UHGV virus genome: UHGV-1770886
Direction: 5' to 3' (one strand)
Length of the DNA stretch: 17,434 nucleotides
Source: a virus
The notes beneath the pieces were generated by a model. The model did not search any database and was not told the DNA's origin. It was given only the letters and a program-made list of their open reading frames with translations. How positions within the stretch are numbered: the first letter of the stretch is position 1; each line of letters starts with the position of its first letter. Position numbers and translations under genes: made by a program. Shown in pieces: positions 1-17,434 of the stretch.

Positions 1-31
1 CCGGGCGCACTTTCCAGTGAAACGTCTCCAT
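1..31 (-). CDS. M: minor tail protein M, N-terminal fragment (runs off window start)
   Basis: ATG at 31..29 overlaps the tape measure stop (TAATG). Translation METFHWKVRP matches the recalled lambda M N-terminus MKTFRWKVKPG. Position immediately after H as in lambda. Confidence 0.5.
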   Translation of the reverse strand, partial: METFHWKVRP

Positions 32-3000
32 TACCGATATGCTCCACTTAACCGACCACCATCACGGGCCTGCTGTTGCATAAAGTCCGCTGCCGCTTTT
101 TTCCCGAGGTCATAAACCGCCTTCAGGGCAGCCGGACCTATCTGCCCGTTCGTGCCATCGTTATTGATCTCGATGTTGTACTGCGGGGAAAACATCGCCA
201 TACCTGACCCCCCAATATCCGCCACAACCCCCAGCTTACCGTCAGCACCACGACGCAATGGCAGAATGGCTTCAGGTCCCGCTTCCCCCATCACACCCGC
301 GCCTTTTGCAAAAGCAAAAAACGTCGGACGGTTAACCACCGTGCCACTGTAACGACTCAAATCAGCAGACTGATAAATCCCCCCATTGGCATTCAGGGAA
401 AGGCTGCTGAGATCAAATCCCAGTACACTGCCAATCCCTTTTATCGATTTCATCATGGTTGCCTGCGCCAGGATTTTCGCCATATCTGACAGCACAGAAG
501 AGGTGAAGGATTTGAAATTGAGTTTGCCGGTAGTGACAAAAGTTGCCAGGCCATTTCCCATGTTGCTGAAGGCTGACGAGAACACCTGTTCTGCTGTTTC
601 TGCCGTATTATCTGCATCCACGGTAAAATCCTGAAATGCACGCAGGACTCCGTTTTTCCAGTTACCCTGCACAACTTCAAGCTGTTGCCAGTAACGGCGA
701 TTCTCATTCAGTTGTCGGTTCAGGCTCTCCGTCAGCGCCTGCTCGGCCTTTCTGTAGTCATCCGTGTTATATGTCCCTTTCTGCTCACTATCCCGCCTCA
801 ACTGCTCCAGCTGTTGCTGGTATTTCTGGCGAAGACTCAGTTGTACCTGATATCGCTGTCGCTGCTGATCACCCATACCCACCGTGGCGATATCCAGGTC
901 ATGTTGCTGACGCTGAGCGCGCTCTTCTTCAGCCAGTTGACTGGTCAGCTGAATTGTTTTTTTCTTCAGCTCGTTGAGTGCCGTCTGTTTCTGAAGCTCC
1001 TGCTGTTTTACATCCAGCAGCGTCAGTGCCTGAATCAGTTCATCTTTACGGGCCAGCACACTCTTTTCATCTGCCGTCAGTTTTTTCCCGTCCAGGTCGC
1101 TGATGCGCTGCTGCAGAGCCAGAAGCTGTTTATGCGCTTCTGTCATCCTTTCCGTGGCAATGCCTGCTGACTGTCTGGCAGCAGCAATCTGTCCTTCCAC
1201 CTGTGCCTGTTGCTGACTGTACTGCAGCAATAACCGGGTGGCCTCATCATTACGGGTTTCGCGTGTTTTTTTCTTACCGGATGCCAGGGCTTTCTCGTAA
1301 CGTTCATTTTCACGTTGTATCGCCGCATCCCTGACAGCCTGATCGGCGTACTGCATGGCATTAATACGCGCAATTTCACGCTGATGTCGTGCTGCTTCCG
1401 TTTCATTCATCCGGTTCAGTGCAGCATTTTCAGCATTACGGCGTTTCTGTTGCTCCTGATAATTCCGCTCTGCCTGCTCTTTTGCATCCTGCAAATCCTT
1501 CTGGCGTTTTTTCTCCTGAAGATCGTTAAGACGCTGCTGATCGTATTCAACCTGAGAAGATGATGCCGTCCAGGGGAGTCTTTTCGCCCGCGACACTTTC
1601 TCCTGTAAAGCGGCAATCTGTTCATCCAGCGAGTCTTCACGACCAATATTCATGGCCGCATCCCAGAAACGACTCCACAAATCAGACAGATACTTCAGCG
1701 TACTGCCAAGCGCATTGAGGTTATTATCAATATCCGCAGTACGCCGACCGGTTTCCTCTGCCAGTGCAGACATGGCTATCCGTGCAGCATCACTGGACCG
1801 CCCCTGCTCCCCAAGGACGCGTATCTGCTCAAGCTGAGTGGCAGTAAGAAAATGCAGCTCATTGTCCAGAGCCTTCGCGGCATTTACAGGATCATCCTTC
1901 AGCCGCTTAAACTGATTTATGGTATCGCTGACCGACTGGCCAACCGATCGCTCCATCTGTGCGGCAACTCTCGCCACCATACCGATATCGTTTCCACGAA
2001 ATGCACCACTCCCCACCACCTGAGCCAGCGCACCGGCTGCAGCATGTTGCGTGATACCATTCCCGGAAATAGCACGACTGAGCGTCCACAGCTGCCCGGC
2101 AGTGACTCCGGCATAATGCCCCGTCAGCGACAACTGGCGGTTAAATTCTTCCCCCTCCTTCTGACCGTCATACCAGGCTTTACCCAGACCATAGACGGCC
2201 GCGGCAATACCGCCAATAACCCCGCCAAGCATCATGCCTTTCGGTGACATCAGTGTGTCTATCCATCCGGCACGGTTAGCCAGCGTTATCCCGGATCCCC
2301 TCAGCGCCCCTAAATTGCCGCGGGCCAGTTCACCTATCAGAACGCCTATCTCCTGGCGGGCTGCTGCACTTTTCAGACCCAGCGAATGCGTGGCTTTTCC
2401 TGCCTGCTCCATTTTGCGGATATACACTTCTGCAGCACTGCTTACCCCCAGCTGGGCTGCCTTAGCACGAAGCAACTCAGAAGATGAAAGATTCAGGCGG
2501 GTTGCCTGCTCTTTAAGCTGACGGATAAACGCCACTTTCTGTCGGGTAGCCTCTTCCTCAGCCTGTGTAAGAACACGGGTTTTCGCAGTAACCTCAGAAA
2601 TCAGCGCCAGATAATCCTGCTGACCAATCCCGCCACTGTTTCTGGCCTGTCGGATCTGCTGCTGAATACGCTGTAATTCCTGCAGCCCCGCACTGGCCTG
2701 TTTCACACTGTCAATCTGACGATAAAACGCAGCAGCCGCTTTATCCTGAGCCTCCGCCAGAGCCATGGCCTGCGCCTGTTCCTCGCGCATTTTCTGGCTC
2801 AGTGCCTCCATGCGCTGGCGGGTTTTCTCCACCTCGCGGGCCATGCGTTCATGAGCCTGTGCGTTCTTCTCCACCGTCTGCGCATGGACGGATGCGGCTG
2901 TTGCAGCCGAAGAAGCTGCCTGCGTTGTCTGCCGGGCGGCCTGAGTCTGACGCTCCATAAAACGCTGCATACGGGCAGAAGACCGTTCTGCATCGCTGGC

Positions 3001-3096
3001 TGCACCATTCAGAAGGTTTTTGATACGGGGAATTTCATTTTTAAACTCTGCCGCATCAATCCCCAAATCAATGACCAGGTTGGCTATCTGGTCCAT
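31..3096 (-). CDS. H: tail tape measure protein (lambda gpH-like), 1021 aa from internal Met
   Basis: ORF track 31..3126. Start moved to ATG at 3096 (MDQIANLVIDLGIDAAEF, cf. lambda H MAEPVGDLVVDLSLDAARF), preceded by GGAGGT 8 nt upstream. C-terminus INNDGTNGQIGPAALKAVYD matches lambda H. Long Q/E/R/K-rich helical middle typical of tape measures. Confidence 0.9.
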   Translation of the reverse strand: MDQIANLVIDLGIDAAEFKNEIPRIKNLLNGAASDAERSSARMQRFMERQTQAARQTTQAASSAATAASVHAQTVEKNAQAHERMAREVEKTRQRMEALSQKMREEQAQAMALAEAQDKAAAAFYRQIDSVKQASAGLQELQRIQQQIRQARNSGGIGQQDYLALISEVTAKTRVLTQAEEEATRQKVAFIRQLKEQATRLNLSSSELLRAKAAQLGVSSAAEVYIRKMEQAGKATHSLGLKSAAARQEIGVLIGELARGNLGALRGSGITLANRAGWIDTLMSPKGMMLGGVIGGIAAAVYGLGKAWYDGQKEGEEFNRQLSLTGHYAGVTAGQLWTLSRAISGNGITQHAAAGALAQVVGSGAFRGNDIGMVARVAAQMERSVGQSVSDTINQFKRLKDDPVNAAKALDNELHFLTATQLEQIRVLGEQGRSSDAARIAMSALAEETGRRTADIDNNLNALGSTLKYLSDLWSRFWDAAMNIGREDSLDEQIAALQEKVSRAKRLPWTASSSQVEYDQQRLNDLQEKKRQKDLQDAKEQAERNYQEQQKRRNAENAALNRMNETEAARHQREIARINAMQYADQAVRDAAIQRENERYEKALASGKKKTRETRNDEATRLLLQYSQQQAQVEGQIAAARQSAGIATERMTEAHKQLLALQQRISDLDGKKLTADEKSVLARKDELIQALTLLDVKQQELQKQTALNELKKKTIQLTSQLAEEERAQRQQHDLDIATVGMGDQQRQRYQVQLSLRQKYQQQLEQLRRDSEQKGTYNTDDYRKAEQALTESLNRQLNENRRYWQQLEVVQGNWKNGVLRAFQDFTVDADNTAETAEQVFSSAFSNMGNGLATFVTTGKLNFKSFTSSVLSDMAKILAQATMMKSIKGIGSVLGFDLSSLSLNANGGIYQSADLSRYSGTVVNRPTFFAFAKGAGVMGEAGPEAILPLRRGADGKLGVVADIGGSGMAMFSPQYNIEINNDGTNGQIGPAALKAVYDLGKKAAADFMQQQARDGGRLSGAYR

Positions 3097-3418
3097 AACG
3101 CACACCTCCGGAAATACCTTCCCCAAGATGCATCAGTTCTTCGTCCGTTCGCTCCGGTATCCCGTTCTCTTCCGGTAAAAGGCTGAAATCAGCCACCGCA
3201 GCATCACTGCTGCCGGACACCATTCTCACGATCAATGCCTTCAGCGAGGCAAACTGCGCATCCATCCACACATCACTGAAGCTCTGCATCCGGAAATAAT
3301 CGCCCCACTCACCAAGCTCAGTGGCCGACATTTCCGACAGCATCCGCCGCCAGTCTGCCCGCCGGAACTCCCGGGCAAGCCGCATGACAAACTGCATTTC
3401 CCGCGTCAGGACTTTTCC
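3068..3418 (-). CDS. T: T-frame extension of the tail assembly chaperone (G-T fusion via programmed -1 frameshift)
   Basis: Open -1 frame continues from the end of G through 3068 and overlaps the H start by 29 nt, as in lambda G/T/H. Heptamer GGAAAAG (mRNA sense, plus 3412..3418) sits 2 codons before the G stop; lambda uses GGGAAAG at the equivalent place. Confidence 0.6.
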   Translation of the reverse strand, partial: GKVLTREMQFVMRLAREFRRADWRRMLSEMSATELGEWGDYFRMQSFSDVWMDAQFASLKALIVRMVSGSSDAAVADFSLLPEENGIPERTDEELMHLGEGISGGVRYGPDSQPGH

Positions 3419-3795
3419 GGCGTCAGCGCCTCATGCTCATCATCCACGGCATTATCAATGGCCCCCATACCGCTCAGCGACAGAACCATCTCCGCCCCCG
3501 CACCCAGGGCATCATACGACCATGTTGTAATAACGGATGCGCAAAGCGTCTCTACATCCTTAGACTGATCCGCATTCCACAGTGAGCGGGAAACCAGCCA
3601 GGCATTGATATCCATCCCCATCCGCAGAAAAGCAATCTGTCGTTCAGCCTCCGGCAGTTCTCCCTCCCCGGCATCAAACTTTGCCGTTCGCTGCTGAACA
3701 AACGTCAGATATTCAATTCTCTGCAGCCCGGACAGCTCACTGAGCACCACGGACTGTTTTTCATAATTAAACGTGTCCTGTTTCAGAAACATCAT
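3406..3795 (-). CDS. G: tail assembly chaperone (lambda gpG-like)
   Basis: MFLKQDTFNYEKQSVVLSELSGLQRIEYL aligns with lambda G MFLKTESFEHNGVTVTLSELSALQRIEHL. Position between V and H. Start ambiguous between tandem ATGs at 3795 and 3792; GGTGGAG lies upstream. Confidence 0.8.
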   Translation of the reverse strand: MMFLKQDTFNYEKQSVVLSELSGLQRIEYLTFVQQRTAKFDAGEGELPEAERQIAFLRMGMDINAWLVSRSLWNADQSKDVETLCASVITTWSYDALGAGAEMVLSLSGMGAIDNAVDDEHEALTPEKS

Positions 3796-3852
3796 GTTCT
3801 CCACCTGCAAAAAAGCCCCGAATAACCGGGGCAAATGATGAGTATCGTCCTG

Positions 3853-4596
3853 TTAACCTGCTGCGCTGACAGTCACCGCAGTCACAGCCACAAAATTCCC
3901 GTCAGCGGTCATGCCCACAATGCTGACACTGCCCTGCTTCACGCCTTTTACCGTGGCCACAAGTCCGTTCAGGGTAACCGTGGCAGTCTGTGGATCTGAC
4001 GAATGCACACTGATCGCTTTGTCACTGGCTCCGTCAGGTTTTACTGTAAAGGTCAGCGTGGTGGTTGCTCCCACTTTTACACTGGCAGACGCCGGTGATA
4101 CTGTCAGCCCGGTAACGCTCACGGTTTCAGTGCCTTCCTCTGCCAGATACGGACGCCCCACACCGCTGATTTTCACAGTGCGGGTCATCACGTCTTTTGA
4201 GGCAATGGTTTTACCCAGTGAGCTCAGCCAGCCACGGAAAACATCAACAGTGCCGTTGGGATATTTGATACGAAACGCGCAGACTTCACCGGAGTCGAAC
4301 AACTGAACCAGTTTTTTCTGCCCGCTGTCACCCGGACGCCAGGCCAGCGTCGCCGAAGTATCACCAACGGATTTCTGCCCCTGGGTTGTCGTTTTCCAGT
4401 CTGCATCTTCATCATCGAGATAAGTGTCATCTTCTGCATCAGCGGTCATTTCGCCAGGTTGCAGATCCTTCACCATCGCAAGACGCAGCCAGTCAGTGTC
4501 CGACAAAGGGTTCGCAAACGCATCGCCGTTGCCGGTATACATCCAGAACGTCGTCCCCGCACCTTTCGTCTTTGCCAGTGGATTTGGTGTGGTCAT
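3853..4596 (-). CDS. V: major tail protein (lambda gpV-like) with C-terminal Ig-like domain
   Basis: From ATG at 4596 (MTTPNPLAKTKGAGTTFWMY), preceded by AGGAGGT. Strong collinear similarity to recalled lambda V ([20 protein letters not shown] ... NGTVDVFRGW ...). C-terminal TVSVTGLTVSPASASV... resembles a Big_2-type Ig domain. Confidence 0.9.
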   Translation of the reverse strand: MTTPNPLAKTKGAGTTFWMYTGNGDAFANPLSDTDWLRLAMVKDLQPGEMTADAEDDTYLDDEDADWKTTTQGQKSVGDTSATLAWRPGDSGQKKLVQLFDSGEVCAFRIKYPNGTVDVFRGWLSSLGKTIASKDVMTRTVKISGVGRPYLAEEGTETVSVTGLTVSPASASVKVGATTTLTFTVKPDGASDKAISVHSSDPQTATVTLNGLVATVKGVKQGSVSIVGMTADGNFVAVTAVTVSAAG

Positions 4597-5870: not shown

Positions 5871-6186
5871 TGAGTTTTACCGGCACTTCTTCTGCACTGG
5901 TTCCGGCATCTGCCCAGACAACCCCGACCAGCGGCTCAGAGCCGCTGTTAGTCAGCTGAACTTTTCCTGACTTCAGATAAACCTTCTTACCCGTTTTCAT
6001 GTCATCCGTTTTCAGCTTAGGCAGCATAAACACACCTTCGGTTATGCCGTCGCCTGTTTCTCCCTGTGGAATATCGGTCAGCGCCACCGCAAAAACATCC
6101 CCCACCTGCACCAGATCTCCGCTGCTGATGGCTGCACTGGCAACAATCGCCACCGTTTTTCCTTCTTCTACAAAATTCTTTGCCAT
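5863..6186 (-). CDS. small head-associated protein, DUF2190-like (occupies the lambda FI/decoration position)
   Basis: From ATG 6186 (MAKNFVEEGKTVAIVASAAISSGDLVQVGDV...), GGAGA 5 nt upstream. About 107 aa, Gly/Val-rich, immediately downstream of the capsid ORF. Family assignment is from memory of the DUF2190 N-terminal pattern and is not verified. Confidence 0.5.
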   Translation of the reverse strand: MAKNFVEEGKTVAIVASAAISSGDLVQVGDVFAVALTDIPQGETGDGITEGVFMLPKLKTDDMKTGKKVYLKSGKVQLTNSGSEPLVGVVWADAGTSAEEVPVKLNV

Positions 6187-6272: not shown

Positions 6273-8231
6273 TTACGCCGTACATTTCACCAGGCCGCGG
6301 TGATCAACTGGCGCAACACCAGCGTCAATACGCACTTTCGTTGTCACGCCATCCACACTGAAGCCCTCCATCTGATCAATATATGGCGTATCCACACCGT
6401 TGAGATAAGCCACTTCAATCGTATCGGAGCCTTTGGACGCAGCCAGGTAGAAGGTGGTCTGGCTGTTATCATCAAGACGAGGCTCTGCAATAACGGTCGC
6501 AAAATCTTTCACCGGGTTAATAATACCGGCGTTAATGTCAGCCCCCTTGACACTTGAGGAGCGAATGACCTGGTTAGCAACAGACTCCATCGCCGTCGGT
6601 ACCAGTACGAACGCAGGACGAATATTCAGATGACGCTCACCCTCTTTCTGAACGCGCATCAACTGGCGGGCTTTATCCAGCGATGCCACGTCCATTGCCG
6701 CGCTCTCCAGTACGTTTGCATGTTTCGCTTTATCGAACAGACTTACATTATCTGTGGAGATTTTCGGGTTAGACGTCAGAATGGCATAAACCAGATCGGC
6801 AATAGTGGATTTCGCCGCACGGCCCAGCTTCATCGGGACATCGGTCAGCATATTCAGATCATCATTGATAATGGCCTGACGGGTGATACTGAACAGCTCG
6901 CCATAGGTCGCCAGTGCAATAGTGGCCTGTTTATCTCCGGTGGTGACGTATTTATATTCTGCCCCTTCACGCACCTGACGCAGAGCACTGAAGCCCCCCA
7001 TACCCACACGATGGGCAATTTTAAAATCAGACAACTGACCTTTCCGCGTCCACTGTTCATAGGTTTCAGGGGCATCTTCCCAGCCCTGCAGAATGGCTTT
7101 GTTCGCAACATCCAGCAGAATATTACCGAAGTCAGACGTACTGTGTGTGAACGCCGCACCGACCATCTGCATCGGGTTATAACTGGAAACACCAATACCA
7201 CGTTCAGTCAGTGACATACGGGCATATTCACGCAGGGTCATCCCGTTGTAGACATTATCACGTTCAGTTTTTTCAAACCCGGCGCGCGCCATCAGCGCCT
7301 GGCGGATCCCGTCCCCCACAAAATTACCGTTACCGGCATAAATATGAGCCGGGGTATTTTTATTGGATGGCGTGGACTCGCGCCCCATCTCGTTCAACAG
7401 CTTTTCGCGGGCCTGCTCCAGCGAACATTCAGGATCGGCAAGACACTGAGCCTGCAACGACTGATAACGCCCGCCAAACATGGCAAACAGATCATTAATA
7501 CCGTTTACACGCGCTTTTTGCTCTGCCAGGACCTGCGCACGGATGCTGTTTTCATCCACCACGGGTGCTGCTGCCTGCACTGGCGTCCGGGAGGCTGCAG
7601 GTCCATCATCCTGTACGCGTGGAGCACTGTTGCGTGGCGGAGTAATCATATTTCGAATGGATTCCGGCATCTTTTTAAATTCCTCTGTACGTTTTGACTG
7701 AATACATGCCATTGCCTTAACGGCTGGTGTCACCTGATCAGCAAATCCCTGTGCCAGACATTCGGCACCGGACATCCAGGTCTCATCCGCCAGCATGGCA
7801 GCAATTTCATCGGTGGTTTTCCCGGTTTTCTGTGCATAAGCGGGTAACAGAACCGCCTCAACTTTATCGAGCAGGTCGGCATAGGTGCGCATGTCCTCCG
7901 CATCACCGCCCGTAAAGCCAAATGGTTTATGAATCATCATGAAGGAGTTTTCCGGCATAATGACCGGGTTTCCCACCATCGCAATGACCGACGCCATTGA
8001 CGCCGCCACACCGTCGACATAAACGGTAATGGACGCACCATGTGTTTTCAGTGCATTAAAAATGGCGATGCCTTCAAAGACATCGCCACCCGGTGAATTA
8101 ATATGGAGATTAATGTGGGTGATATCGCCCAGTGCATTCAGATCACTGATAAACTGCTTCGCCGTAACACCCCAGAAACCAATCTCGTCATAAATATAAA
8201 TATCCGCGTCACTCTGGTGACCTGCCTGCAT
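6273..8231 (-). CDS. prohead protease (ClpP/S14-like) - linker/scaffold-like - major capsid protein in one ORF
   Basis: One uninterrupted frame of 652 codons from ATG 8231 (13 nt after the portal stop). N-terminal ~200 aa look ClpP-like (DIYIYDEIGFWG ... INSPGGDVFEGIAIFNAL ... GVAASMASVIAM ... MMIHKP). A helical Q/E/R-rich linker follows. The C-terminal ~350 aa are of capsid size and position. Upstream track residues 1-87 rejected because they overlap the portal gene. Confidence 0.75.
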   Translation of the reverse strand: MQAGHQSDADIYIYDEIGFWGVTAKQFISDLNALGDITHINLHINSPGGDVFEGIAIFNALKTHGASITVYVDGVAASMASVIAMVGNPVIMPENSFMMIHKPFGFTGGDAEDMRTYADLLDKVEAVLLPAYAQKTGKTTDEIAAMLADETWMSGAECLAQGFADQVTPAVKAMACIQSKRTEEFKKMPESIRNMITPPRNSAPRVQDDGPAASRTPVQAAAPVVDENSIRAQVLAEQKARVNGINDLFAMFGGRYQSLQAQCLADPECSLEQAREKLLNEMGRESTPSNKNTPAHIYAGNGNFVGDGIRQALMARAGFEKTERDNVYNGMTLREYARMSLTERGIGVSSYNPMQMVGAAFTHSTSDFGNILLDVANKAILQGWEDAPETYEQWTRKGQLSDFKIAHRVGMGGFSALRQVREGAEYKYVTTGDKQATIALATYGELFSITRQAIINDDLNMLTDVPMKLGRAAKSTIADLVYAILTSNPKISTDNVSLFDKAKHANVLESAAMDVASLDKARQLMRVQKEGERHLNIRPAFVLVPTAMESVANQVIRSSSVKGADINAGIINPVKDFATVIAEPRLDDNSQTTFYLAASKGSDTIEVAYLNGVDTPYIDQMEGFSVDGVTTKVRIDAGVAPVDHRGLVKCTA

Positions 8232-8244
8232 CCTGAACCAGGAA

Positions 8245-9753
8245 TTATTCTTCGGACTGGTCGTCGGTGTGCTGCGGCTCCTGTCGTTTCGTTGCGGCAC
8301 TGCTGCCTCCTTTATCACTGGCCGGATCGGTATCAAATACCAGATCCAGCTTGCGGTTTTCATCAATTTCGGCCTTGCGCCGACGTTTGACATCATCTGG
8401 ATTACGACCACCTGCACGTACCCAGTCTGATTCTGTCGCCGCTCCACCACGAATCTGAATTTTCCAGGCCTCAGCCTCCTTAACAGGGTCAATCCACGGC
8501 ATCACCGGTCCGGAATACACCGCGGTATACAGTGAAGAACGATCAAGATCGCGGGGTAGCCTGATAACACCGGATGCCACAGCCTGTTTCAGCCAGGCAC
8601 GATACATCGGGCGGGTGACGGCACCAATAAACCAGTCCTGCAGGATCAGGTAGCCATCAGTGGATTCAACCAGCTCCTGACGCTGGGCGCTGTAAGTGCC
8701 GTTATAGTTGCGCGCTGTACTGGAAAAACTCAGACGACTGCCCGCCGCCACGGCACGCAACTGACCATTACGAAAAGTTTCAAGATTAGGATTGGGGCGA
8801 TCCGACTTCACCATTCCGATTTCTTCGCCGGGTTTCAGATCGTCGTAAATAATGCCTGGCTGAATGGTAAGCTCGCGTTCCTTATCCTTGCTGCCATTAC
8901 CATCCGGTTCATAGCTCTGCCCGTCGCCTTTCCGGATGTACATCCCCAGAGCAGCGGCGATCCTTGCTGCAGTCAGCTCAGAATCTTCATACTCTTTCAG
9001 GGCACTGAGGCGGATCAGCACACCGGACAACAAAGACGTCCCGCGCATCTGGTGCAGACGGCGAACAAATTTAAGATGCAGCATTCGCTCTGCATCCACT
9101 TCTTTGGTTTCCATCTGCCGTCCGGATACGGGACGGCTTTTATACACCAGATATTTTTCGGGACGCCCCCAGTCATCAACAAACACGCCCTGATTCAGCC
9201 TGTTGCTCTCATCACTGGTCATGGGAATAAAGTCCGGCTCGAGCGCCTCCAGCCAGAAATGAACACCGGCAGAAGGCGTCAGGCTGTTTATGCGCCCGGA
9301 AACCATCTGGGCAAACACCTCACCATCGCGCAGCCAGGTACGCAACATCAGACGTTCCAGCATCGGACGGGTAAACTGCCCGGTGACTTCCGGACTGACA
9401 GACCATTCACTCCATCGGGTGCGTATCTCCGCTGCCAGATCACGGGCAATGGCCCCATTGCGTAATACCGGATGTGGCTCGACAATAATCCCGTTTTTCC
9501 CCACCACCCGTTCTTCCAGCTTGTCAAATACACCAATGACCAGATCGTGGTTGTTATCAAGGTAACGGGCCTGCTCACGTAACGACACGGCCCCGTACTG
9601 GCTTAACTGGTCGGCAGTTCGGTTTTCCCGCCGGGCTTTGTGTGTCCGCGTCGTTTTTACGGCCTCATAAGCCTGGATCACCGCACGGGAACGCAGCCTT
9701 GCCGCTTTCCATCCTGGTGAAAAAACGCCAATCACATCATCAAGAATTGCCAT
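8245..9753 (-). CDS. portal protein
   Basis: 502 aa from ATG 9753, which overlaps the gpW stop (ATGA). Size and position (after terminase and W, before protease/capsid) match lambda gpB. Not aligned residue-by-residue to lambda B. Confidence 0.8.
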   Translation of the reverse strand: MAILDDVIGVFSPGWKAARLRSRAVIQAYEAVKTTRTHKARRENRTADQLSQYGAVSLREQARYLDNNHDLVIGVFDKLEERVVGKNGIIVEPHPVLRNGAIARDLAAEIRTRWSEWSVSPEVTGQFTRPMLERLMLRTWLRDGEVFAQMVSGRINSLTPSAGVHFWLEALEPDFIPMTSDESNRLNQGVFVDDWGRPEKYLVYKSRPVSGRQMETKEVDAERMLHLKFVRRLHQMRGTSLLSGVLIRLSALKEYEDSELTAARIAAALGMYIRKGDGQSYEPDGNGSKDKERELTIQPGIIYDDLKPGEEIGMVKSDRPNPNLETFRNGQLRAVAAGSRLSFSSTARNYNGTYSAQRQELVESTDGYLILQDWFIGAVTRPMYRAWLKQAVASGVIRLPRDLDRSSLYTAVYSGPVMPWIDPVKEAEAWKIQIRGGAATESDWVRAGGRNPDDVKRRRKAEIDENRKLDLVFDTDPASDKGGSSAATKRQEPQHTDDQSEE

Positions 9754-9965: not shown

Positions 9966-12064
9966 AACCATCCTCCGGAAGTCAGCCAGGGGTTAACATC
10001 GTCAGTTACTGTTTTCTTCCGTTTTTGTTTTTTAACAGGCGTGGATACCGGTTCCGGTGTGGGTGACGGTTCGGTACTGTCCGGGACACACTCCAGCCAG
10101 GTTTCCCGGCTCGCCCACTCCGGTGCATCCGGCCAGCGGATCTTTTCGTATCCATGCAGAATGACCAGAGCCTCGGCATACACCATCAGGTCAAAAGCTT
10201 CGTTGGCACCGCGACCCGGCTTACTCCATTTCCCGTCACTGCTCCGCTCTTCATACGTCAGTTCGTCGTAAAACCAGCTCCCCAGCCAGTCAGGGAAATG
10301 CACATAGCCGGGACCTGGCGAGTCACGCCATAACGCGTTATTCACCCGGTCTTTCAGGGCATCCGTCTGAAGAAGCCAGAGCGGTACATCACCTGCGGCC
10401 TGCGCCCGTCGGCCCGTTCGTCCGGTGTTATCAGGGAATGTACGGGTGATCAGTTTTGCGCGCCGGATGCTGTCGCCCTTAAACAGGTAAATACGTTTAC
10501 CAAGGCCATCACGACGGCAACGACGCCAGAATTTATAGGCATTATCAGTGACTCCGTCTTCACCGCCGGAGTCCACCGCCATTGCCATCAGTCGCATTTG
10601 TTGAGAAGGATCGGAGGCCAGCGGCCAGCTTTTATGAAAAACATCCGTCAGCAGGACATCCCAGTCTTCCGGATAGCTGGCCGGATCAATTCGCTGGCTC
10701 TCCCCGTCGCTGTCACCGCGCAATGACTGCGTGATGTTGTAACGATCAATAATCCAGCGTTCGCCACGGCTGCCATAGCCCGTTACCTGAACCACAAAAC
10801 GGCGATGACGTCCCGCCTGCACATCAACTGTCGCCACCAGGAAATTAACGCCATCCGGCACACTGCGGGAAGGAACTGGCTCTGCCCGCTGCTCAAGCAG
10901 TTCACTTTTTCGTTGCTCCATGCTGGCACGGGGAAGATAAGGTAATCCCCAGTCGGTATTGATAACCGTCTTGAGTGTTTCTTCACTTCCGGTTGTCTCG
11001 TATTCCTGTTCTGCAGCAAGCAGTTTGTAAACGAGTTGCGAGAGTGTCTGGTAAGCAGCTGCCGGACCCTCCATCCAGAATGACGCAATACGTGAGCGTC
11101 GGGGATCACCATAACGACTGCCATCCGCATTGATGGATTCACCATCCCGCAACCAGACCCCACGTCCGTTCAGCTCACGTTTTTGTTCAGGCATAATCCG
11201 TCCTGAACAGGAAGGACACTGAATATAAGCCGCCTCACTTGCCAGCACGGGATCGGCAATATCACGGAAACCAGCAACCACATCGCCGCAGGGCTGAAAA
11301 TACTCACCACAGTGTGGACAGGGCCAGTACCAGCGACGGCGATCGCCACGGTTATAGAGCGACAGTATCCCCGTGGTTGGTGGAGCCTCATGCGGTGAAG
11401 TCCGTCGCCATTTCACATCCTTCACATCCCTGCCGGGGGAACTCTCCACCAGCGTCATACCACTGGACATAAATGTGGTGGTACGTTTTGAGGCAAGAGA
11501 GAAGGCATCCCCCTCGCCATCAATATCTTCCGGAAAACGGTCATAATCCGTCAGCGCCACGCATTTATAATCTGATGAGGACATGATATTGACTGACGGC
11601 CAGCCGATTTTCAGGTAGTTGCCAGCAAGGAATGTTCTGTCATAAACGTTGTTGTCATTTTTGTTCGGACTCAGGCGACTGACCACTTCCGGGCTGACGC
11701 GAAACGTTCTGGCAAGTCGTTTTTTGGAGTGTTCGCGGGCTTTTTCCTCCGTCATCTGAATGATCAGCATATCAGCAGGATCGCAAATCACGTTGTAAAT
11801 CACCCAGCCGTCAATCAGGCCGATAGTCTTGCCAGTTCGTGCCGGGCCAACAAATATCACTGCGTCGTATTCACGCGAGGCCAGGCAGTTCATCGGCTCA
11901 ATAACATACGGTGCCACCAGCGGATCCCACGGGACTGAGTTCCCGGCCCCCATGGGCACCCGCATATACTGAGCAACGGCATCAGCAACCCGCATTCGTC
12001 TCGGTGCGCGAAGGATATAACCTGAATCGGTTCGTGCTGCCTTTGCGGTTTCCTGATTCAGCAT
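9962..12064 (-). CDS. A: terminase large subunit (lambda gpA-like)
   Basis: 700 aa. Walker A-like GPARTGKT. CPHCGEYFQP zinc-ribbon-like motif parallels lambda A ACPHCGEEQYL. Start ATG overlaps the small-subunit stop (TAATG) with AGGAGGAG upstream. Confidence 0.9.
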   Translation of the reverse strand: MLNQETAKAARTDSGYILRAPRRMRVADAVAQYMRVPMGAGNSVPWDPLVAPYVIEPMNCLASREYDAVIFVGPARTGKTIGLIDGWVIYNVICDPADMLIIQMTEEKAREHSKKRLARTFRVSPEVVSRLSPNKNDNNVYDRTFLAGNYLKIGWPSVNIMSSSDYKCVALTDYDRFPEDIDGEGDAFSLASKRTTTFMSSGMTLVESSPGRDVKDVKWRRTSPHEAPPTTGILSLYNRGDRRRWYWPCPHCGEYFQPCGDVVAGFRDIADPVLASEAAYIQCPSCSGRIMPEQKRELNGRGVWLRDGESINADGSRYGDPRRSRIASFWMEGPAAAYQTLSQLVYKLLAAEQEYETTGSEETLKTVINTDWGLPYLPRASMEQRKSELLEQRAEPVPSRSVPDGVNFLVATVDVQAGRHRRFVVQVTGYGSRGERWIIDRYNITQSLRGDSDGESQRIDPASYPEDWDVLLTDVFHKSWPLASDPSQQMRLMAMAVDSGGEDGVTDNAYKFWRRCRRDGLGKRIYLFKGDSIRRAKLITRTFPDNTGRTGRRAQAAGDVPLWLLQTDALKDRVNNALWRDSPGPGYVHFPDWLGSWFYDELTYEERSSDGKWSKPGRGANEAFDLMVYAEALVILHGYEKIRWPDAPEWASRETWLECVPDSTEPSPTPEPVSTPVKKQKRKKTVTDDVNPWLTSGGWL

Positions 12065-12555: not shown

Positions 12556-12724
12556 ATTTCCTCCGGAGAGCTTTAAACATGCATCGTGCGAACAACTTTA
12601 AGAAAACGCGTTCGATGTCGAACAAAAAACACTCAACTCGACATACAAAAAACAAACAACCATTAATAATCAATAAGATGCAAAGATGATGGTGGCCGAT
12701 AAAAATGCAAAAACTAGCCTTTTT

Positions 12725-12775
12725 CCGCGACGCTCCCGCCCCGTGGCAGGGACCCCCACTGGGAGGACCCGACAG
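12725..12775 (-). other. cos site (cosN with flanking cosQ-like sequence) of a lambda-type packaging system
   Basis: Minus-strand sequence ...CCACG GGGCGGGAGCGT CGCGGAAAA... aligns without gaps to recalled lambda ...TTACG GGGCGGCGACCT CGCGGGTTTT... (8 of 12 overhang positions identical, both flanks conserved). Upstream GGGAGGACCCG parallels lambda GGAAAGGACCCG. Confidence 0.5.
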
Positions 12776-13107
12776 CCTGACAACCGTGACGAGCATCTGA
12801 AACAGAGCGTTACATAATGGCATGGGGATAATTCAGAAGGACATCACAGCATGCCCACACAAATTAGTGTGAGTGTCCTGTTTCTTACTACGCGCAGGAC
12901 TGACGAGCATGAGGGGAAAATACGCGAACCGAAATGCCTTATCTTCAGAAATGCAGCCGGCATCCGAACTGGACGATATTGTAAATTCACCTAAATACGA
13001 GGCATTGCTGTAGTTGAATTGCAGTACTGTATTAGCCTTACAGTGACAGAATACGATATTGACTCTGTCACTTGTGAAATGGTCAGAATGGTTAGCAGTT
13101 ATGGTGA

Positions 13108-13314
13108 TCAGTCAACCACCAGGGAATAATCCTTCGTATTCTTATCGTGCTTTACTAACGCGGCCTCAATTGCCCTGAATGCTTCCAGAGATACTTGATG
13201 TTCTATACATGCAATTACAACATCCGGGTAACCCATCGAAATGGTGCTATTAAGCATAGTTTTTACACGAACCTGCTCCTGGGAGGGGGCATCAGTGTAT
13301 TGATCTTTATGCAT
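13108..13314 (-). CDS. small conserved lambdoid hypothetical protein (68 aa)
   Basis: ATG 13314 with GGAG 8 nt upstream. Protein ...[53 protein letters not shown] recall a near-identical 68-aa ORF near the right end of lambda, but could not verify this. Confidence 0.5.
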
Positions 13315-13510
13315 TTTGTCGCTCCATTCGTTTGCTCTTCACTTGCGGCTAAAAATATAACGTCAAATCACTCAGCATGAAAGAGTGAAAGTTTCAGCGC
13401 GTTTCCCTTACATAATCTGTCGTTTGTATTCTCTTCAGGCATACCGGAAAGACTAGGTATTGTCACACAACCAATACCATTGACAATCGAGATTTATATC
13501 TATTCGGTAA

Positions 13511-13546
13511 TGTTTAAATATAACAAAACCCCGTAAAAACGAGGTT
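13511..13546 (-). terminator. putative rho-independent terminator downstream of the gns-like gene
   Basis: Minus-strand AACCTCG-TTTTTA-CGGGGTT (7-bp stem with one G.U) followed by a U-rich run (TTGTTATATTT). Confidence 0.4.
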
Positions 13547-13609
13547 TATGGGTAATTTGTATTGTTGAATAGCATCTGATGAGAAATTGATGCTAATACT
13601 ATAAACATG

Positions 13610-13783
13610 CTAGATTAAATCAATCTTGATATCATAGCTTTCAAGACCAGTCATTTTTTCCCGTGCAGTAAACTGGATACTGGTAACTTCTTTCCCGGTC
13701 TTTTTCTTAAGCTCAATGATTTTTTTTGTTATATATTCAGAAATATCTGCTTCTGTTTTTGTTTTTAACTCTTCAATGTTCAT
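13610..13783 (-). CDS. gnsB: GnsA/GnsB-family small protein (57 aa)
   Basis: MNIEELKTKTEADISEYITKKIIELKKKTGKEVTSIQFTAREKMTGLESYDIKIDLI matches my recollection of E. coli GnsA/GnsB in length and motifs. AGAGGAA upstream; second of two tandem ATGs chosen for spacing. Symbol gnsB is from Qin-prophage-like synteny and is not verified. Confidence 0.55.
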   Translation of the reverse strand: MNIEELKTKTEADISEYITKKIIELKKKTGKEVTSIQFTAREKMTGLESYDIKIDLI

Positions 13784-13955
13784 CATTTCCTCTTTTAGTC
13801 TGTTATGACTGTCCTGGTACACAGTAGTGTCAATTATATGGAGCAAACGTATAAAAGATAAGATGAAACATCGCAATAATCAACATACGACGGTCTAAAT
13901 TTCACACAAACAGATAAAGATGATTATCATTTATTATCAATGCATTAGAATCAAA

Positions 13956-14186
13956 TCAATTCAAGAGTCTCATTGCTGCTTCCAGAATTTCTTCTGAAGT
14001 TACATGTCGATCCGCTGCTACATAAATGACTTTATGATCTCCGGTCAGAGATGGAAACCCTGCAGCCATTACAGTGAGGTGTGTTGTTTCGCCATTTGGA
14101 TATTCACGCATGATGGTGTTAACTCCGGTCATCACTGGCACTACCATTGCTGGTTCAGAGTTAAAAAAAACTATTATTTTTTTCAT
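13956..14186 (-). CDS. hypothetical small protein (76 aa from ATG; track gives an 89-aa GTG-initiated version)
   Basis: ORF track 13956..14225. The GTG start at 14225 would sit inside the terminator U-tract, so ATG 14186 (MKKIIVFFNSEPAMVVPVMTGVNTIM...) is preferred despite a weak SD. AT-rich. No family recognised. Confidence 0.35.
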   Translation of the reverse strand: MKKIIVFFNSEPAMVVPVMTGVNTIMREYPNGETTHLTVMAAGFPSLTGDHKVIYVAADRHVTSEEILEAAMRLLN

Positions 14187-14230
14187 AATGTTACCGTAAT
14201 ATGTGAGTATCCATCGACTAGACACTAAGC

Positions 14231-14250
14231 AAAAAAGCTCCCGAAGGAGC
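14231..14250 (-). terminator. putative rho-independent terminator downstream of the csp gene
   Basis: Minus-strand GCTCC-TTCG-GGAGC (5-bp GC-rich stem, tetraloop) followed immediately by TTTTTT (plus-strand AAAAAA at 14231..14236). Confidence 0.5.
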
Positions 14251-14457
14251 CTTCATTTTCACTTTCTTAAATCTAACGACAGATGGCTAACATTTAAGTA
14301 TTGTGAAATATTATCAAATGTAATCATCATTGATTTACAAAAGATACATTTTGCCCCGAAAGGATTTCTGTCAGAAACATCAAAAGATGATGTTCTATAC
14401 TGAGAACCATGGCAACACGGGCATCTAAAGTGAATATGGTTTGTAATATTTTCTACC

Positions 14458-14670
14458 TCAAAGTGCCACTACATGAACAGCTGCAGGGCCTTTAGGTCCG
14501 TTCTCAATACCAAATTCGACTTCCTGATTCTCAGTTAACGTTTTGAAATCGTTGCTCTGAATAGCTGAGAAATGCACAAACACATCTTTGCTACCATCTT
14601 TCGGCGTGATGAAACCAAAACCTTTTTCAGGGTTAAACCATTTCACTAAACCAGTCATTTTGTTAGACAT
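14458..14670 (-). CDS. cspI: CspA-family cold-shock protein (70 aa)
   Basis: [38 protein letters not shown]... carries the canonical RNP1/RNP2 cold-shock-domain motifs (KGFGFI, VFVHF). AAGG SD and csp-like leader (AAAGGTAATAA ATG). Paralog call cspI rests on synteny (csp next to Rz) and recalled sequence. Confidence 0.85.
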
Positions 14671-14814
14671 CATTATTACCTTTTGAAGAAGTTAGCCCTT
14701 GGGCAGAATGGTCCGAAAAAAAATATCAGAGAGAAAAACCAACAAGGAAATCTCAAGAGGTACAAATAATAAAATTATAACAATGACTGCTTCAGATAAT
14801 TTTGTAACAAACCA

Positions 14815-14850
14815 GAACACCATTAACGCATGATTAACCAACCATAGCAA
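14815..14850 (-). promoter_or_regulatory. candidate sigma70 promoter for the csp gene with ~145-nt leader
   Basis: Minus-strand TTGCTA (plus 14845..14850), 17-nt spacer, GTTAAT (plus 14822..14827), resembling the cspA promoter (TTGCAT / CTTAAT). AT-rich UP-like sequence upstream. Sequence inspection only. Confidence 0.3.
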
Positions 14851-15033
14851 GGATTACTTTTGTAAAGAAAAACACACGAATGAAACAATAGCTTTATTTA
14901 TTAATAAAACGTGTCATTCTGTCTAATGACCTTTTATCTTACCCTTAAGATTTCAAGGATTTTGACTCATGGAAGAGTCCTTTTTATTTAAATTTCACAT
15001 TCAGCGCTAAAAATAATCCGATTTAATATTAAT

Positions 15034-16061
<1,028 letters not shown>

Positions 16062-16195
16062 GGATATTTATCAGGATTTATCGGTTTCTGAACCCTGGAT
16101 ATGTTAAGCATTCAGCCCGTCAGTGGTAGGACACTGGCGCTCTGGTTAAGGATTATGGGGGATGCTGGCTGAGCTACCCCATCTGAGGATTTGAT

Positions 16196-16435
16196 ATGCA
16201 AAAAGAAGTTTTTATCAATATTACAGCTGACTGCTCATCTCCTGCATCAACAGCAAAAGAAATTGAAGCTCTTAAATATATGATTACAGTAATATTTTCC
16301 GTATTGGACCAGAATGAAAAAAATGGAATCATTCATCAATTAAATGAACATGTAAATAATCCATATATCAAAAGCAATCTGGAAATGCTGCTACCAATGA
16401 AAGATATTGGAAAACCAACTGAAACAAAAGGCTAA
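16196..16435 (+). CDS. hypothetical 79-aa protein on the opposite strand; AT-rich cargo ORF inserted between YdfR-like gene and endolysin
   Basis: ATG 16196 with GAGGAT 7 nt upstream. Markedly AT-rich relative to flanking phage genes. Stop overlaps the stop of the convergent minus-strand ORF. A hairpin CGCGCC-N10-GGCGCG follows at 16482..16503. No family recognised. Confidence 0.45.
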   Translation: MQKEVFINITADCSSPASTAKEIEALKYMITVIFSVLDQNEKNGIIHQLNEHVNNPYIKSNLEMLLPMKDIGKPTETKG

Positions 16436-16746
16436 CAACCAGTAATCGAGTTATCTGAACTGTTAATTTTTATGGTATACCGCGCCTCTGAACAGGGGCG
16501 CGTTTCTGGCAACAGCTCGTCCCCTTCACATAACCCGGCAGCAACATCCAGGAAGACCTGTCTGATGCTCCTTCTGGCTGCAGCCTCATAAAACTCCAGC
16601 GCGGCACCTTCAACACGGTCCAGCGAGATGTCCAGGTCAAAAATTTCACCGTCAAAGCGTTCTTTGTCCTGTAATGCTAAAGTTACCGTAACTTTATTCT
16701 CAAAATTGCGGATCCCTTTCACAATCAGTTCATAGTTTTGAGTCAT
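16432..16746 (-). CDS. hypothetical protein, YdfR-like (between holin and endolysin)
   Basis: 104 aa. ATG 16746 with GGAGAG upstream, 4 nt after the holin stop. Same position and size as the ydfR gene between essQ and rrrQ in the K-12 Qin prophage, as I recall it. Sequence similarity not verified. Confidence 0.5.
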   Translation of the reverse strand: MTQNYELIVKGIRNFENKVTVTLALQDKERFDGEIFDLDISLDRVEGAALEFYEAAARRSIRQVFLDVAAGLCEGDELLPETRPCSEARYTIKINSSDNSITGC

Positions 16747-16750
16747 TGAA

Positions 16751-16966
16751 TTACTCTCCCCGTGCCGCCTTACGACGGTCCTCTCTGATTTTGAAATACA
16801 GGTTAGTCAGATATGTCAGCAGCCCAAACAGCAGACTCCCCAGCACGCCTATTGCCGCCCACTGAGACGGGGAAACCCTGTCCAGCAACTGCAGGAACCA
16901 GTAGCCCGTTCCCACCGCTGACGTGGTGTATGACACACCTGTTGTGATTTTTTCCATCTGGTCCAT
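16751..16966 (-). CDS. S: class II pinholin, phage 21 S-like, with dual start (antiholin/holin)
   Basis: 71 aa from ATG 16966: [71 protein letters not shown], near-identical in the C-terminal two-thirds to recalled S21. Met1 and Met4 (MDQM) mirror the S21 71/68 dual start. GGGAGA upstream. The track's 106-aa N-terminal extension would run through the upstream terminator. Confidence 0.85.
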
Positions 16967-16993
16967 ACCCCGTCTCCCGTTATCCGGAAGCTG

Positions 16994-17032
16994 AAAACAA
17001 TAAAAAAGCCACCAGTTAACTACTGATGGCTC
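16994..17032 (-). terminator. rho-independent terminator immediately upstream of the holin (tR'-like late terminator)
   Basis: Minus-strand AGCCATCAG-TAGTTAA-CTGGTGGCT (9-bp stem including one G.U, 7-nt loop) followed by TTTTTTATTGTTTT, about 30 nt before the holin SD. Confidence 0.6.
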
Positions 17033-17234
17033 TGATAACTCATGCAAGCGTCTCAGACGACCCACTGACACTACCGGTGAGTTTAACGATACCTTCCATT
17101 TGACTGGCTCACTTTTTATGATGATGCCGGTGCATTTATCTCCAGCGCCAGACTTTCTATCTCAACGCCATACGTTACATTTTTGGTAATATCCATCAGC
17201 GTCAGTGCATTTAGTCCCACTGCCAGACTGTCTT

Positions 17235-17434
17235 TTATGGCCTGGAATGCCGGGCCAGTACGATGACGTAGTACCAATCCGGCTCAGTTGCACCACTGAC
17301 CACCACATCACCTTCTGCTGCAATCGCCTGCATCAGGGTATAAGGGGTTATGGCCACCGGACTACCAAACGGCTGCCAGCCCTCCTTCAGTTTTTGTGTC
17401 AGTCGTTTCGCAAGGTCTGACGGCGATGCCGCCC
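17235..17434 (-). CDS. C-terminal fragment of an upstream ORF (start beyond window); possibly the late antiterminator Q or a small conserved pre-lysis protein
   Basis: Open minus-strand frame from the window edge to TAA at 17237..17235: ...LAKRLTQKLKEGWQPFGSPVAITPYTLMQAIAAEGDVVVSGATEPDWYYVIVLARHSRP. Looks more protein-like than the overlapping plus ORF 17205..17420. Ends ~200 nt upstream of the tR'-like hairpin. Confidence 0.35.
   Translation of the reverse strand, partial: AASPSDLAKRLTQKLKEGWQPFGSPVAITPYTLMQAIAAEGDVVVSGATEPDWYYVIVLARHSRP

What the first reader, a model, noticed from the sequence alone, without database searches (positions are those of the whole stretch)
3395..3420. Conserved G/GT programmed -1 frameshift with a non-canonical slippery heptamer
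The T reading frame is open in the -1 frame across the last codons of G and has no reasonable independent start: the first ATG in that frame at 3397 lies after the G stop and has no SD. The heptamer is GGAAAAG (plus 3412..3418), two codons before the G stop, versus lambda GGGAAAG. The P-site codon GAA would not re-pair perfectly after slippage, so efficiency may rely on the A-site Lys AAG to AAA shift.
Basis: partly seen in the sequence, partly recalled or inferred. Interest (0 to 1): 0.5.

Follow-up and report, generated by a model that had tools for sequence, protein, structure and literature searches.

The report
Lambda-type G/GT tail-chaperone frameshift site
This is the well-known ribosomal -1 frameshift that lambda-like phages use to make a small amount of a fused G-T tail-assembly chaperone, and the "unusual" slippery sequence GGAAAAG is the commonest version in this gene family, so the finding is real but ordinary.

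Summary
All the genes are on the minus strand. A lambda gpG homologue (3792..3406) ends ...CCG GAA AAG TCC TGA. The -1 frame is open from 3430 and encodes a lambda gpT homologue down to 3068. The shift must therefore happen within 22 nt, and G_GAA_AAG (3418..3412) is the only slippery motif there. The genes lie between the major tail gene V and the tape-measure gene H, as in lambda.

The heptamer is not a novelty. The phage N15 GenBank record marks exactly GGAAAAG, at the homologous position, as the "slippery sequence for -1 translational frameshift". In my survey of 30 family lineages (90% protein-identity clusters), 24 use G_GAA_AAG, 5 use G_GGA_AAG (lambda) and 1 uses A_AAA_AAG. AAG, GAA and the leading G never vary at synonymous sites. 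The T-frame protein is conserved from the slip site onward, while the ATG at 3397 is not conserved.

I found no conserved downstream RNA structure. An SD-like GAGG lies 10 nt upstream, but its role is inconclusive.

The window is an E. coli mEp460/cdtI-type prophage, and this G-T segment occurs in 1845 of 5426 complete E. coli genomes. The checked phage and RefSeq records annotate G and T as separate genes. No fusion protein or frameshift efficiency has been measured for this lineage. Verdict: already known, low interest.

The parts
3406..3792 (-). Gene G, the tail assembly chaperone (lambda gpG homologue). It encodes 128 aa from ATG 3792, or 129 aa if ATG 3795 is used. Stop TGA is at 3408..3406.
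   Evidence: PF06894 Phage_TAC_2, E 3.8e-40. Family members all begin MFLK (alignment A1). GGAG at 3802..3799 lies 6 nt before ATG 3792. RefSeq calls it 'phage tail assembly chaperone G'.
3412..3418 (-). Slippery heptamer G_GAA_AAG. The P-site codon is GAA (Glu) and the A-site codon is AAG (Lys). After the -1 slip the tRNAs sit on GGA and AAA.
   Evidence: Sequence read directly. It is the only slippery motif in the 22-nt overlap. It is identical to the annotated N15 slippery sequence at the homologous column. It is conserved in 24 of 30 family clusters, with AAG in 30 of 30 and the leading G in 29 of 29.
3431..3433 (-). TGA stop in the T (-1) frame. It sets the 5' limit of where the frameshift can occur.
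   Evidence: Translation of 3436..3389 gives A*GADAGKVLTREMQF.
3068..3430 (-). Open T frame (-1 relative to G). The T segment of the fusion is 114 aa, read from GTC 3412..3410 to the stop at 3070..3068. The predicted GT fusion is 241 aa (127 + 114; my own codon count from the coordinates, using ATG 3792).
   Evidence: PF06223 Phage_tail_T, E 4.6e-15. Translation. The T-frame residues are conserved from the slip site onward in 30 lineages.
3395..3397 (-). First ATG in the T frame. The checked public records of this lineage use it as the T start (Ayreon uses a later one), but it is not conserved in the family.
   Evidence: Ayreon. The first Met in the T frame falls at codon 5, 9, 15 or 23 after the slip site in different lineages. 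Gifsy-1 has CTG at this position.
3429..3432 (-). SD-like GAGG, 10 nt 5' of the heptamer. It is a possible weak stimulator but is unproven.
   Evidence: An SD-like tetramer lies 9-12 nt upstream in 11 of 30 lineages against a 5% background. It coincides with a conserved Glu codon and is absent from lambda, N15 and phi80.
3853..4596 (-). Gene V (major tail tube protein), the upstream neighbour.
   Evidence: PF16461 Phage_TTP_12, E 5e-67, plus a Big_2 domain.
31..3096 (-). Gene H (tape measure protein), the downstream neighbour. Its ATG at 3096 overlaps the end of T by 29 nt, and GGAGG at 3109..3105 lies 8 nt upstream.
   Evidence: PF06791 TMP_2, E 3.4e-49, and PF09718 Tape_meas_lam_C. Sequence.

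Best explanation
Genes G and T of an E. coli mEp460/cdtI-type lambdoid prophage are decoded as in phage lambda. Most ribosomes translate G to its stop and make the ~14 kDa (my estimate) chaperone gpG. A small fraction slip back one nucleotide on G_GAA_AAG (3418..3412). tRNA-Lys moves from AAG to AAA. tRNA-Glu moves from GAA to GGA, which pairs as G:C, G.U, A:U. These ribosomes continue in the T frame and make a 241-aa G-T fusion. By analogy with lambda, the G part binds the tape-measure protein H and the T part recruits the tail tube protein V. The fixed low GT:G ratio is what the frameshift sets. Shown here: the anatomy, the homology, and the conservation of the site. Inferred: that the slip really occurs, that both tRNAs slip together, and how efficient it is.
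For: The two ORFs match PF06894 (gpG) and PF06223 (gpT) and lie between V and H. The T frame is closed by a TGA at 3433..3431 and the G frame by a TGA at 3408..3406, so the frames overlap by only 22 nt, and G_GAA_AAG is the only slippery motif in that stretch. N15 annotates GGAAAAG at the homologous position as the -1 slippery sequence. The Gifsy-1 record, whose sequence has the same ACG CCG GAA AAG TCC TGA, describes its T as made 'by translational frameshifting'.

Across 30 clusters at 90% identity, the heptamer is G_GAA_AAG in 24, G_GGA_AAG in 5 and A_AAA_AAG in 1. The Lys codon is AAG in 30 of 30, against 36% AAG usage elsewhere in these genes. The Glu codon is GAA in 24 of 24, against 54%. 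The preceding fourfold-degenerate base is G in 29 of 29, against 31-59%, and it is A in the single A_AAA_AAG case. That pattern fits P-site re-pairing.

T-frame residues are conserved from the slip site onward (V/A-L/F-x-x-E-L-x-F-x-x-x-LAREF), whereas the first Met moves between codons 5, 9, 15 and 23. Published background: the lambda G:GT ratio of about 30:1 is essential for tail assembly (PMC5009743). A_AAG is the most shift-prone tetramer in E. coli (PMC4066793).
Against: No protein data exist for this phage or, as far as I could find, for any G_GAA_AAG member of the family. In a reconstituted E. coli system, AUG GAA AAG gave mainly 0-frame product and was called 'less slippery' than G GGA AAG (PMC6924986). 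I found no significant or conserved downstream RNA structure (z = -0.77, -1.41 kcal/mol with 0 covarying pairs). The efficiency may therefore be well below lambda's. All the records I checked for this phage group annotate T as an independent CDS. The conservation statistics ignore shared ancestry among the lineages.
Confidence: 0.9

Rival explanations
1. The slip involves only tRNA-Lys on A_AAG, the hexanucleotide NNA_AAG mechanism seen in B. subtilis cdd and IS1222. tRNA-Glu in the P site does not genuinely re-pair. GT is still made, but the motif is functionally a tetramer or hexamer rather than a heptamer.
For: The Atkins 2016 review describes -1 shifting at NNA_AAG in which only tRNA-Lys re-pairs (PMC5009743). 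tRNA-Glu on GGA has a second-position mismatch (PMC6924986). A_AAG is the best tetramer in E. coli.
Against: The base before GAA is G in 29 of 29 G-type lineages at a fourfold-degenerate position, and it switches to A in the one A_AAA_AAG lineage. A single-tRNA slip does not predict that constraint. The same review lists heptamers with imperfect X_XX, such as G_GA, as recognised intermediates.
Confidence: 0.2
2. T is made as a separate 109-aa protein. Ribosomes terminate at the G stop and re-initiate at ATG 3397, which begins 11 nt downstream of the first base of the stop. No frameshift occurs.
For: The ATG lies close to the G stop. Apart from Ayreon, which uses a later ATG, the checked phage records and RefSeq annotate T from this ATG.
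Against: There is no usable SD. The ATG is not conserved: Gifsy-1 has CTG there, and other lineages have their first Met at codon 9, 15 or 23, inside the conserved domain. The T-frame amino acids upstream of the ATG are conserved, and the heptamer is fixed at synonymous sites. The review describes only two products for lambda, gpG and gpGT (PMC5009743).
Confidence: 0.05
3. The frame change is made at the RNA level, by RNA polymerase slippage on the A run of GGAAAAG. It is not made by the ribosome.
For: The motif contains a homopolymeric A run.
Against: The run is only 4 A. From general knowledge, productive transcriptional slippage needs runs of about 7 or more. The family conserves the codon phase and the final G of AAG (30 of 30), which matters for tRNA-Lys but not for polymerase slippage.
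Confidence: 0.01

Closest known systems
Phage lambda G/GT programmed -1 frameshift (Levin, Hendrix & Casjens 1993; Xu, Hendrix & Duda 2004, 2013, 2014, as cited in PMC5009743)
   Same: The Pfam families are the same (gpG PF06894, gpT PF06223). The V-G-T-H gene order is the same. T is in the -1 frame, the slip is on the homologous Lys AAG codon near the end of G, and no conserved downstream structure was found.
   Different: Lambda has G_GGA_AAG with perfect wobble re-pairing (GGA to GGG), and its G stop is 5 codons after the site. Here the heptamer is G_GAA_AAG with a second-position G.U after the slip, and the G stop is 1 codon after the site. The G proteins are about 31% identical.
Phage N15 genes 14/15 (GenBank NC_001901)
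   Same: The heptamer is the identical GGAAAAG at the homologous alignment column. The record explicitly annotates it as 'slippery sequence for -1 translational frameshift'.
   Different: The G protein is about 31% identical to the window's. The N15 G stop is 5 codons downstream of the site. N15 has no SD-like tetramer upstream.
Salmonella prophage Gifsy-1 STM2596/STM2595
   Same: This is the closest diverged relative, at 58% G identity. Its site has the identical ACG CCG GAA AAG TCC TGA. Its T is annotated as 'part of ... gpG by translational frameshifting'.
   Different: It has no ATG at the position of the window's ATG 3397 (CTG instead). Its overlap is 28 nt rather than 22 nt.
NNA_AAG hexanucleotide -1 frameshift sites (B. 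subtilis cdd A_CGA_AAG; IS1222 G_CGA_AAG; Licznar et al. 2003) and E. coli dnaX A_AAA_AAG
   Same: All rely on E. coli-type tRNA-Lys slipping from AAG to AAA. dnaX also has an SD-like element about 10 nt upstream, the same spacing as the GAGG here.
   Different: These are unrelated genes. dnaX and the IS elements use strong downstream stimulators, and none was detected here. The leading G here allows partial P-site re-pairing, unlike C_GA.

Membership tests
Lambda-type G/GT tail assembly chaperone with programmed -1 frameshift | The upstream ORF is homologous to lambda gpG. | tested here: met
   PF06894 Phage_TAC_2, E 3.8e-40, covering 121 of 129 residues. It aligns with lambda, N15 and phi80 G proteins.
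Lambda-type G/GT tail assembly chaperone with programmed -1 frameshift | The downstream ORF is homologous to lambda gpT and lies in the -1 frame relative to G, overlapping its 3' end. | tested here: met
   PF06223 Phage_tail_T, E 4.6e-15. The -1 frame is open from 3430 and the G stop is at 3408..3406.
Lambda-type G/GT tail assembly chaperone with programmed -1 frameshift | The gene pair lies between the major tail protein gene and the tape measure gene. | tested here: met
   V (PF16461) is upstream, and H (PF06791, PF09718) is downstream.
Lambda-type G/GT tail assembly chaperone with programmed -1 frameshift | A slippery sequence lies in the overlap, in phase with G. | tested here: met
   G_GAA_AAG at 3418..3412. 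It is not a strict X_XXY_YYZ motif, but it matches N15's annotated site and is the majority form in the family.
Lambda-type G/GT tail assembly chaperone with programmed -1 frameshift | The slip site is under purifying selection at synonymous positions. | tested here: met
   AAG in 30 of 30, GAA in 24 of 24, leading G in 29 of 29, against 31-59% background usage. Caveat: the lineages are not independent.
Lambda-type G/GT tail assembly chaperone with programmed -1 frameshift | A G-T fusion protein is produced at a low fixed ratio and is required for tail assembly. | not testable with these tools
   This needs a western blot, mass spectrometry or genetics. It is known only for lambda (PMC5009743).
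dnaX-type stimulated -1 frameshift (upstream SD plus downstream hairpin) | A conserved downstream stem-loop or pseudoknot. | tested here: not met
   The window fold gives z = -0.77. RNAalifold over 24 family representatives gives -1.41 kcal/mol with no covarying pair.
dnaX-type stimulated -1 frameshift (upstream SD plus downstream hairpin) | An SD-like element about 10 nt upstream of the heptamer. | tested here: inconclusive
   GAGG at 3432..3429, with a 10-nt spacing. An SD-like tetramer is present in 11 of 30 lineages against a 5% background. It is confounded by a conserved Glu codon and is absent from lambda, N15 and phi80.

The most novel reading that the evidence does not exclude
G_GAA_AAG was characterised in vitro as poorly slippery, yet it is the predominant heptamer of lambda-type G/GT genes (24 of 30 lineages). 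These phages may therefore be tuned to a GT:G ratio well below lambda's 1:30. Alternatively they may compensate with unrecognised local stimulators, such as the SD-like GAGG 10 nt upstream and the 0-frame stop one codon after the site. Either would make this family a natural titration series for how P-site mispairing sets frameshift efficiency.
Probability: 0.2. Interest if true: 0.3.

Novelty: already known. Interest (0 to 1): 0.15.

Why it matters
The practical value lies in annotation. This G-T module is present in 1845 of 5426 complete E. coli genomes. The checked phage and RefSeq records split it into two independent genes and give T a non-conserved ATG start, so the real product, a 241-aa G-T fusion, is missing from those protein sets. 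Biologically it adds nothing new to the lambda paradigm. The one modest point is that the textbook lambda heptamer G_GGA_AAG is the minority form, and the imperfect G_GAA_AAG is the family norm.

Tried and rejected
1. A downstream stimulatory RNA structure. The 102 nt 3' of the heptamer fold no better than shuffles. There is no consensus structure or covariation across 24 family representatives. Rejected.

2. An upstream SD-like stimulator. It is enriched, at 11 of 30 lineages against a 5% background. But it sits on a conserved Glu codon, does not correlate with heptamer type (Fisher p = 0.37), and is absent from lambda, N15 and phi80. Left inconclusive.

3. Rarity of the heptamer. GGAAAAG occurs 5 times in the window against 2.7 expected. 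By my own phase arithmetic, the two minus-strand copies inside other genes (2400..2394 and 5967..5961) are out of phase. The motif alone is not evidence.

4. Database 'fusion' proteins P0025 and P0039, which carry both the G and T domains. They turned out to be internal deletions, not products of the slip site.

5. IMG/VR scans with single G proteins returned only near-identical copies. Diversity came from the alignment-based genome scan and from named phages.

6. Literature. I could not obtain Licznar et al. 2003 or Xu et al. 2004. The PRFect supplement held no list of heptamers. I found no paper measuring G_GAA_AAG frameshifting in a phage G/T context.

Full report
**What is there.** All the relevant genes are on the minus strand. 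Reading that strand, an ORF matching Pfam PF06894 (lambda tail assembly chaperone gpG, E 3.8e-40) runs from ATG 3792 (or 3795) to TGA 3408..3406. It ends ...GAG GCG CTG ACG CCG GAA AAG TCC TGA, which translates as ...EHEALTPEKS*. The -1 frame carries a TGA at 3433..3431 and is then open to 3070..3068. It reads GADAGK-VLTREMQFVMRLAREF... and matches PF06223 (lambda minor tail protein T, E 4.6e-15). Upstream is the major tail tube gene V (PF16461). Downstream, overlapping the end of T by 29 nt, is the tape-measure gene H (PF06791, PF09718). The rest of the late operon is a standard lambdoid head and tail set: terminase, lambda-family portal, ClpP-capsid, cement protein, Z and U.

**Checking the observation.**
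- GGAAAAG is at 3418..3412, in phase G_GAA_AAG.
- One sense codon separates it from the G stop.
- The first T-frame ATG is at 3397..3395, after the G stop.
- That ATG has no usable Shine-Dalgarno sequence, because the GGA ends 1 nt before it.

The two frames overlap by only 22 nt (3430..3409), and the heptamer is the only slippery motif in that stretch. The heptamer alone is not statistically unusual, with 5 copies in the window against 2.7 expected. The signal lies in its phase, its position and its conservation.

**Where the window comes from.** The G-T region is 97-100% identical to E. coli lambdoid phages PhiR55_1, mEp460, cdtI, Tritos and Ayreon. It is found in 1845 of 5426 complete E. 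coli genomes. None of the records I checked annotates a frameshift. mEp460, Tritos and RefSeq start T at the ATG, and Ayreon starts it at a later ATG.

**Comparison across the family.** I collected 279 loci: IMG/VR scans, an alignment-driven scan of one genome per species, and the named phages lambda, N15, phi80, VT1-Sakai, mEp043, Gifsy-1, Fels-1 and a Klebsiella phage. They reduce to 149 distinct complete G-T sequences and 30 clusters at 90% fusion-protein identity. At the homologous column:

| Heptamer | Clusters at 90% identity | Clusters at 70% identity |
|---|---|---|
| G_GAA_AAG | 24 | 14 |
| G_GGA_AAG (lambda type) | 5 | 4 |
| A_AAA_AAG (VT1-Sakai) | 1 | 1 |

The Lys residue is invariant in the protein alignment. 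The synonymous positions of the site are also fixed:

| Position | At the site | Background in the same genes |
|---|---|---|
| Lys codon is AAG | 30 of 30 | 36% |
| Glu codon is GAA | 24 of 24 | 54% |
| Fourfold-degenerate base before the P-site codon is G | 29 of 29 | 31-59% |

In the single A_AAA_AAG lineage, that preceding base is A. Neighbouring codons vary freely, so the constraint is on the nucleotide motif. The covariation of the first base with the P-site codon fits tandem re-pairing of both tRNAs. These figures ignore shared ancestry and should be read qualitatively.

**The heptamer is already known.** The N15 GenBank record carries a misc_feature 'slippery sequence for -1 translational frameshift' at 10027..10033. 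Its sequence is GGAAAAG, at the column homologous to 3418..3412. Gifsy-1 has the identical ACG CCG GAA AAG TCC TGA, and its record describes T as made 'by translational frameshifting'.

**Is T made on its own?** The T-frame amino acids are conserved from the codon immediately after the slip site (V/A-L/F-x-x-E-L-x-F-x-x-x-L-A-R-E-F). The first Met in that frame falls at codon 5, 9, 15 or 23 in different lineages. Gifsy-1 has CTG where the window has ATG 3397. Together with the lack of an SD, this argues against independent initiation or termination-reinitiation. The review describes only two products for lambda, gpG and gpGT (PMC5009743).

**Mechanism.** Established knowledge covers three points.
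- Lambda makes gpG and about 1/30 as much gpGT by a -1 shift, and that ratio is essential for tail assembly. The G moiety binds the tape-measure protein and the T moiety recruits the tube protein (PMC5009743).
- A_AAG is the most shift-prone tetramer in E. coli, and X_XXA_AAG motifs are the best heptamers (PMC4066793).
- NNA_AAG hexamers, and heptamers with an imperfect X_XX such as G_GA, are recognised intermediates (PMC5009743).

Here tRNA-Lys re-pairs from AAG to AAA. tRNA-Glu would sit on GGA with a second-position G.U. In a reconstituted system, AUG GAA AAG was 'less slippery' than AUG GGA AAG for exactly this reason (PMC6924986). The efficiency here is therefore unknown and could be lower than lambda's.

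**Stimulators.** I found no stimulatory structure. The 102 nt downstream fold no better than shuffles (z = -0.77). Twenty-four family representatives share no consensus structure or covarying pair. An SD-like GAGG lies 10 nt upstream, at 3432..3429. Such tetramers occur 9-12 nt upstream in 11 of 30 lineages against a 5% background. However, they coincide with a conserved Glu codon, are absent from lambda, N15 and phi80, and do not correlate with heptamer type. This stays inconclusive.

**Verdict.** The finding is a correct identification of the lambda-type G/GT programmed -1 frameshift in an mEp460/cdtI-type E. coli prophage. It meets every sequence-level criterion of that family. Only the protein-level criterion, a GT fusion at a low ratio, is untestable here. 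The heptamer is neither new nor unusual within the family. The residual value is for annotation, since the checked public records miss the 241-aa fusion. A modest open question also remains: how efficient G_GAA_AAG is in vivo without obvious stimulators.

Noticed in passing
window 3832..3809 (minus strand), between V and G: A terminator-like hairpin, GCCCCGGTTATTCGGGGC followed by TTTTTT, sits in the V-G intergenic space. mEp460 and Ayreon annotate a terminator at the same place, and N15 annotates a putative one. A partial terminator here would lower G/T/H expression relative to V.
   Followed up: partly
window 3432..3429 (minus strand): An SD-like GAGG lies 10 nt 5' of the heptamer, the same spacing as the dnaX stimulator. 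SD-like tetramers occur 9-12 nt upstream in 11 of 30 family lineages against a 5% background. This is confounded by a conserved Glu codon, and the tetramer is absent from lambda, N15 and phi80.
   Followed up: partly
window 6273..8492 (minus strand): One 739-aa ORF carries both a ClpP-type protease domain (PF00574) and a major capsid domain (PF25209) in a single frame. It appears to be a protease-scaffold-capsid fusion gene. The listed TTG start overlaps the portal gene, so the true start is probably later.
   Followed up: no
loci L264-L276, L281-L285 (genome-contig scan): G loci with the same 32% identity to the query as lambda's own G protein sit on short contigs, several labelled with about 1x coverage. 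The assemblies are of unrelated taxa (Kitasatospora, Pseudomonas, Shewanella, Paenibacillus, Psychrobacter and others). The full-length ones (L264-L276) carry lambda's exact junction sequence. This is most likely lambda DNA contamination of those assemblies.
   Followed up: no
proteins P0025 and P0039: Two database proteins carry both the G and T domains in one ORF. Both arise from internal deletions that join the frames, not from an indel at the slippery site. P0039 joins directly into ...GKVLTREMQF, the predicted post-slip reading.
   Followed up: yes
family loci, G 3' ends: The G stop falls into two discrete classes: 1 codon after the heptamer (12 of 30 lineages, including the window) or 5 codons after it (18 of 30). 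The two classes differ by single-base changes such as TGA versus TTG or TCG. Whether the adjacent stop affects frameshifting is unknown.
   Followed up: partly
window 12556..17434: I did not examine the region beyond the small terminase gene. It contains only short ORFs on both strands.
   Followed up: no
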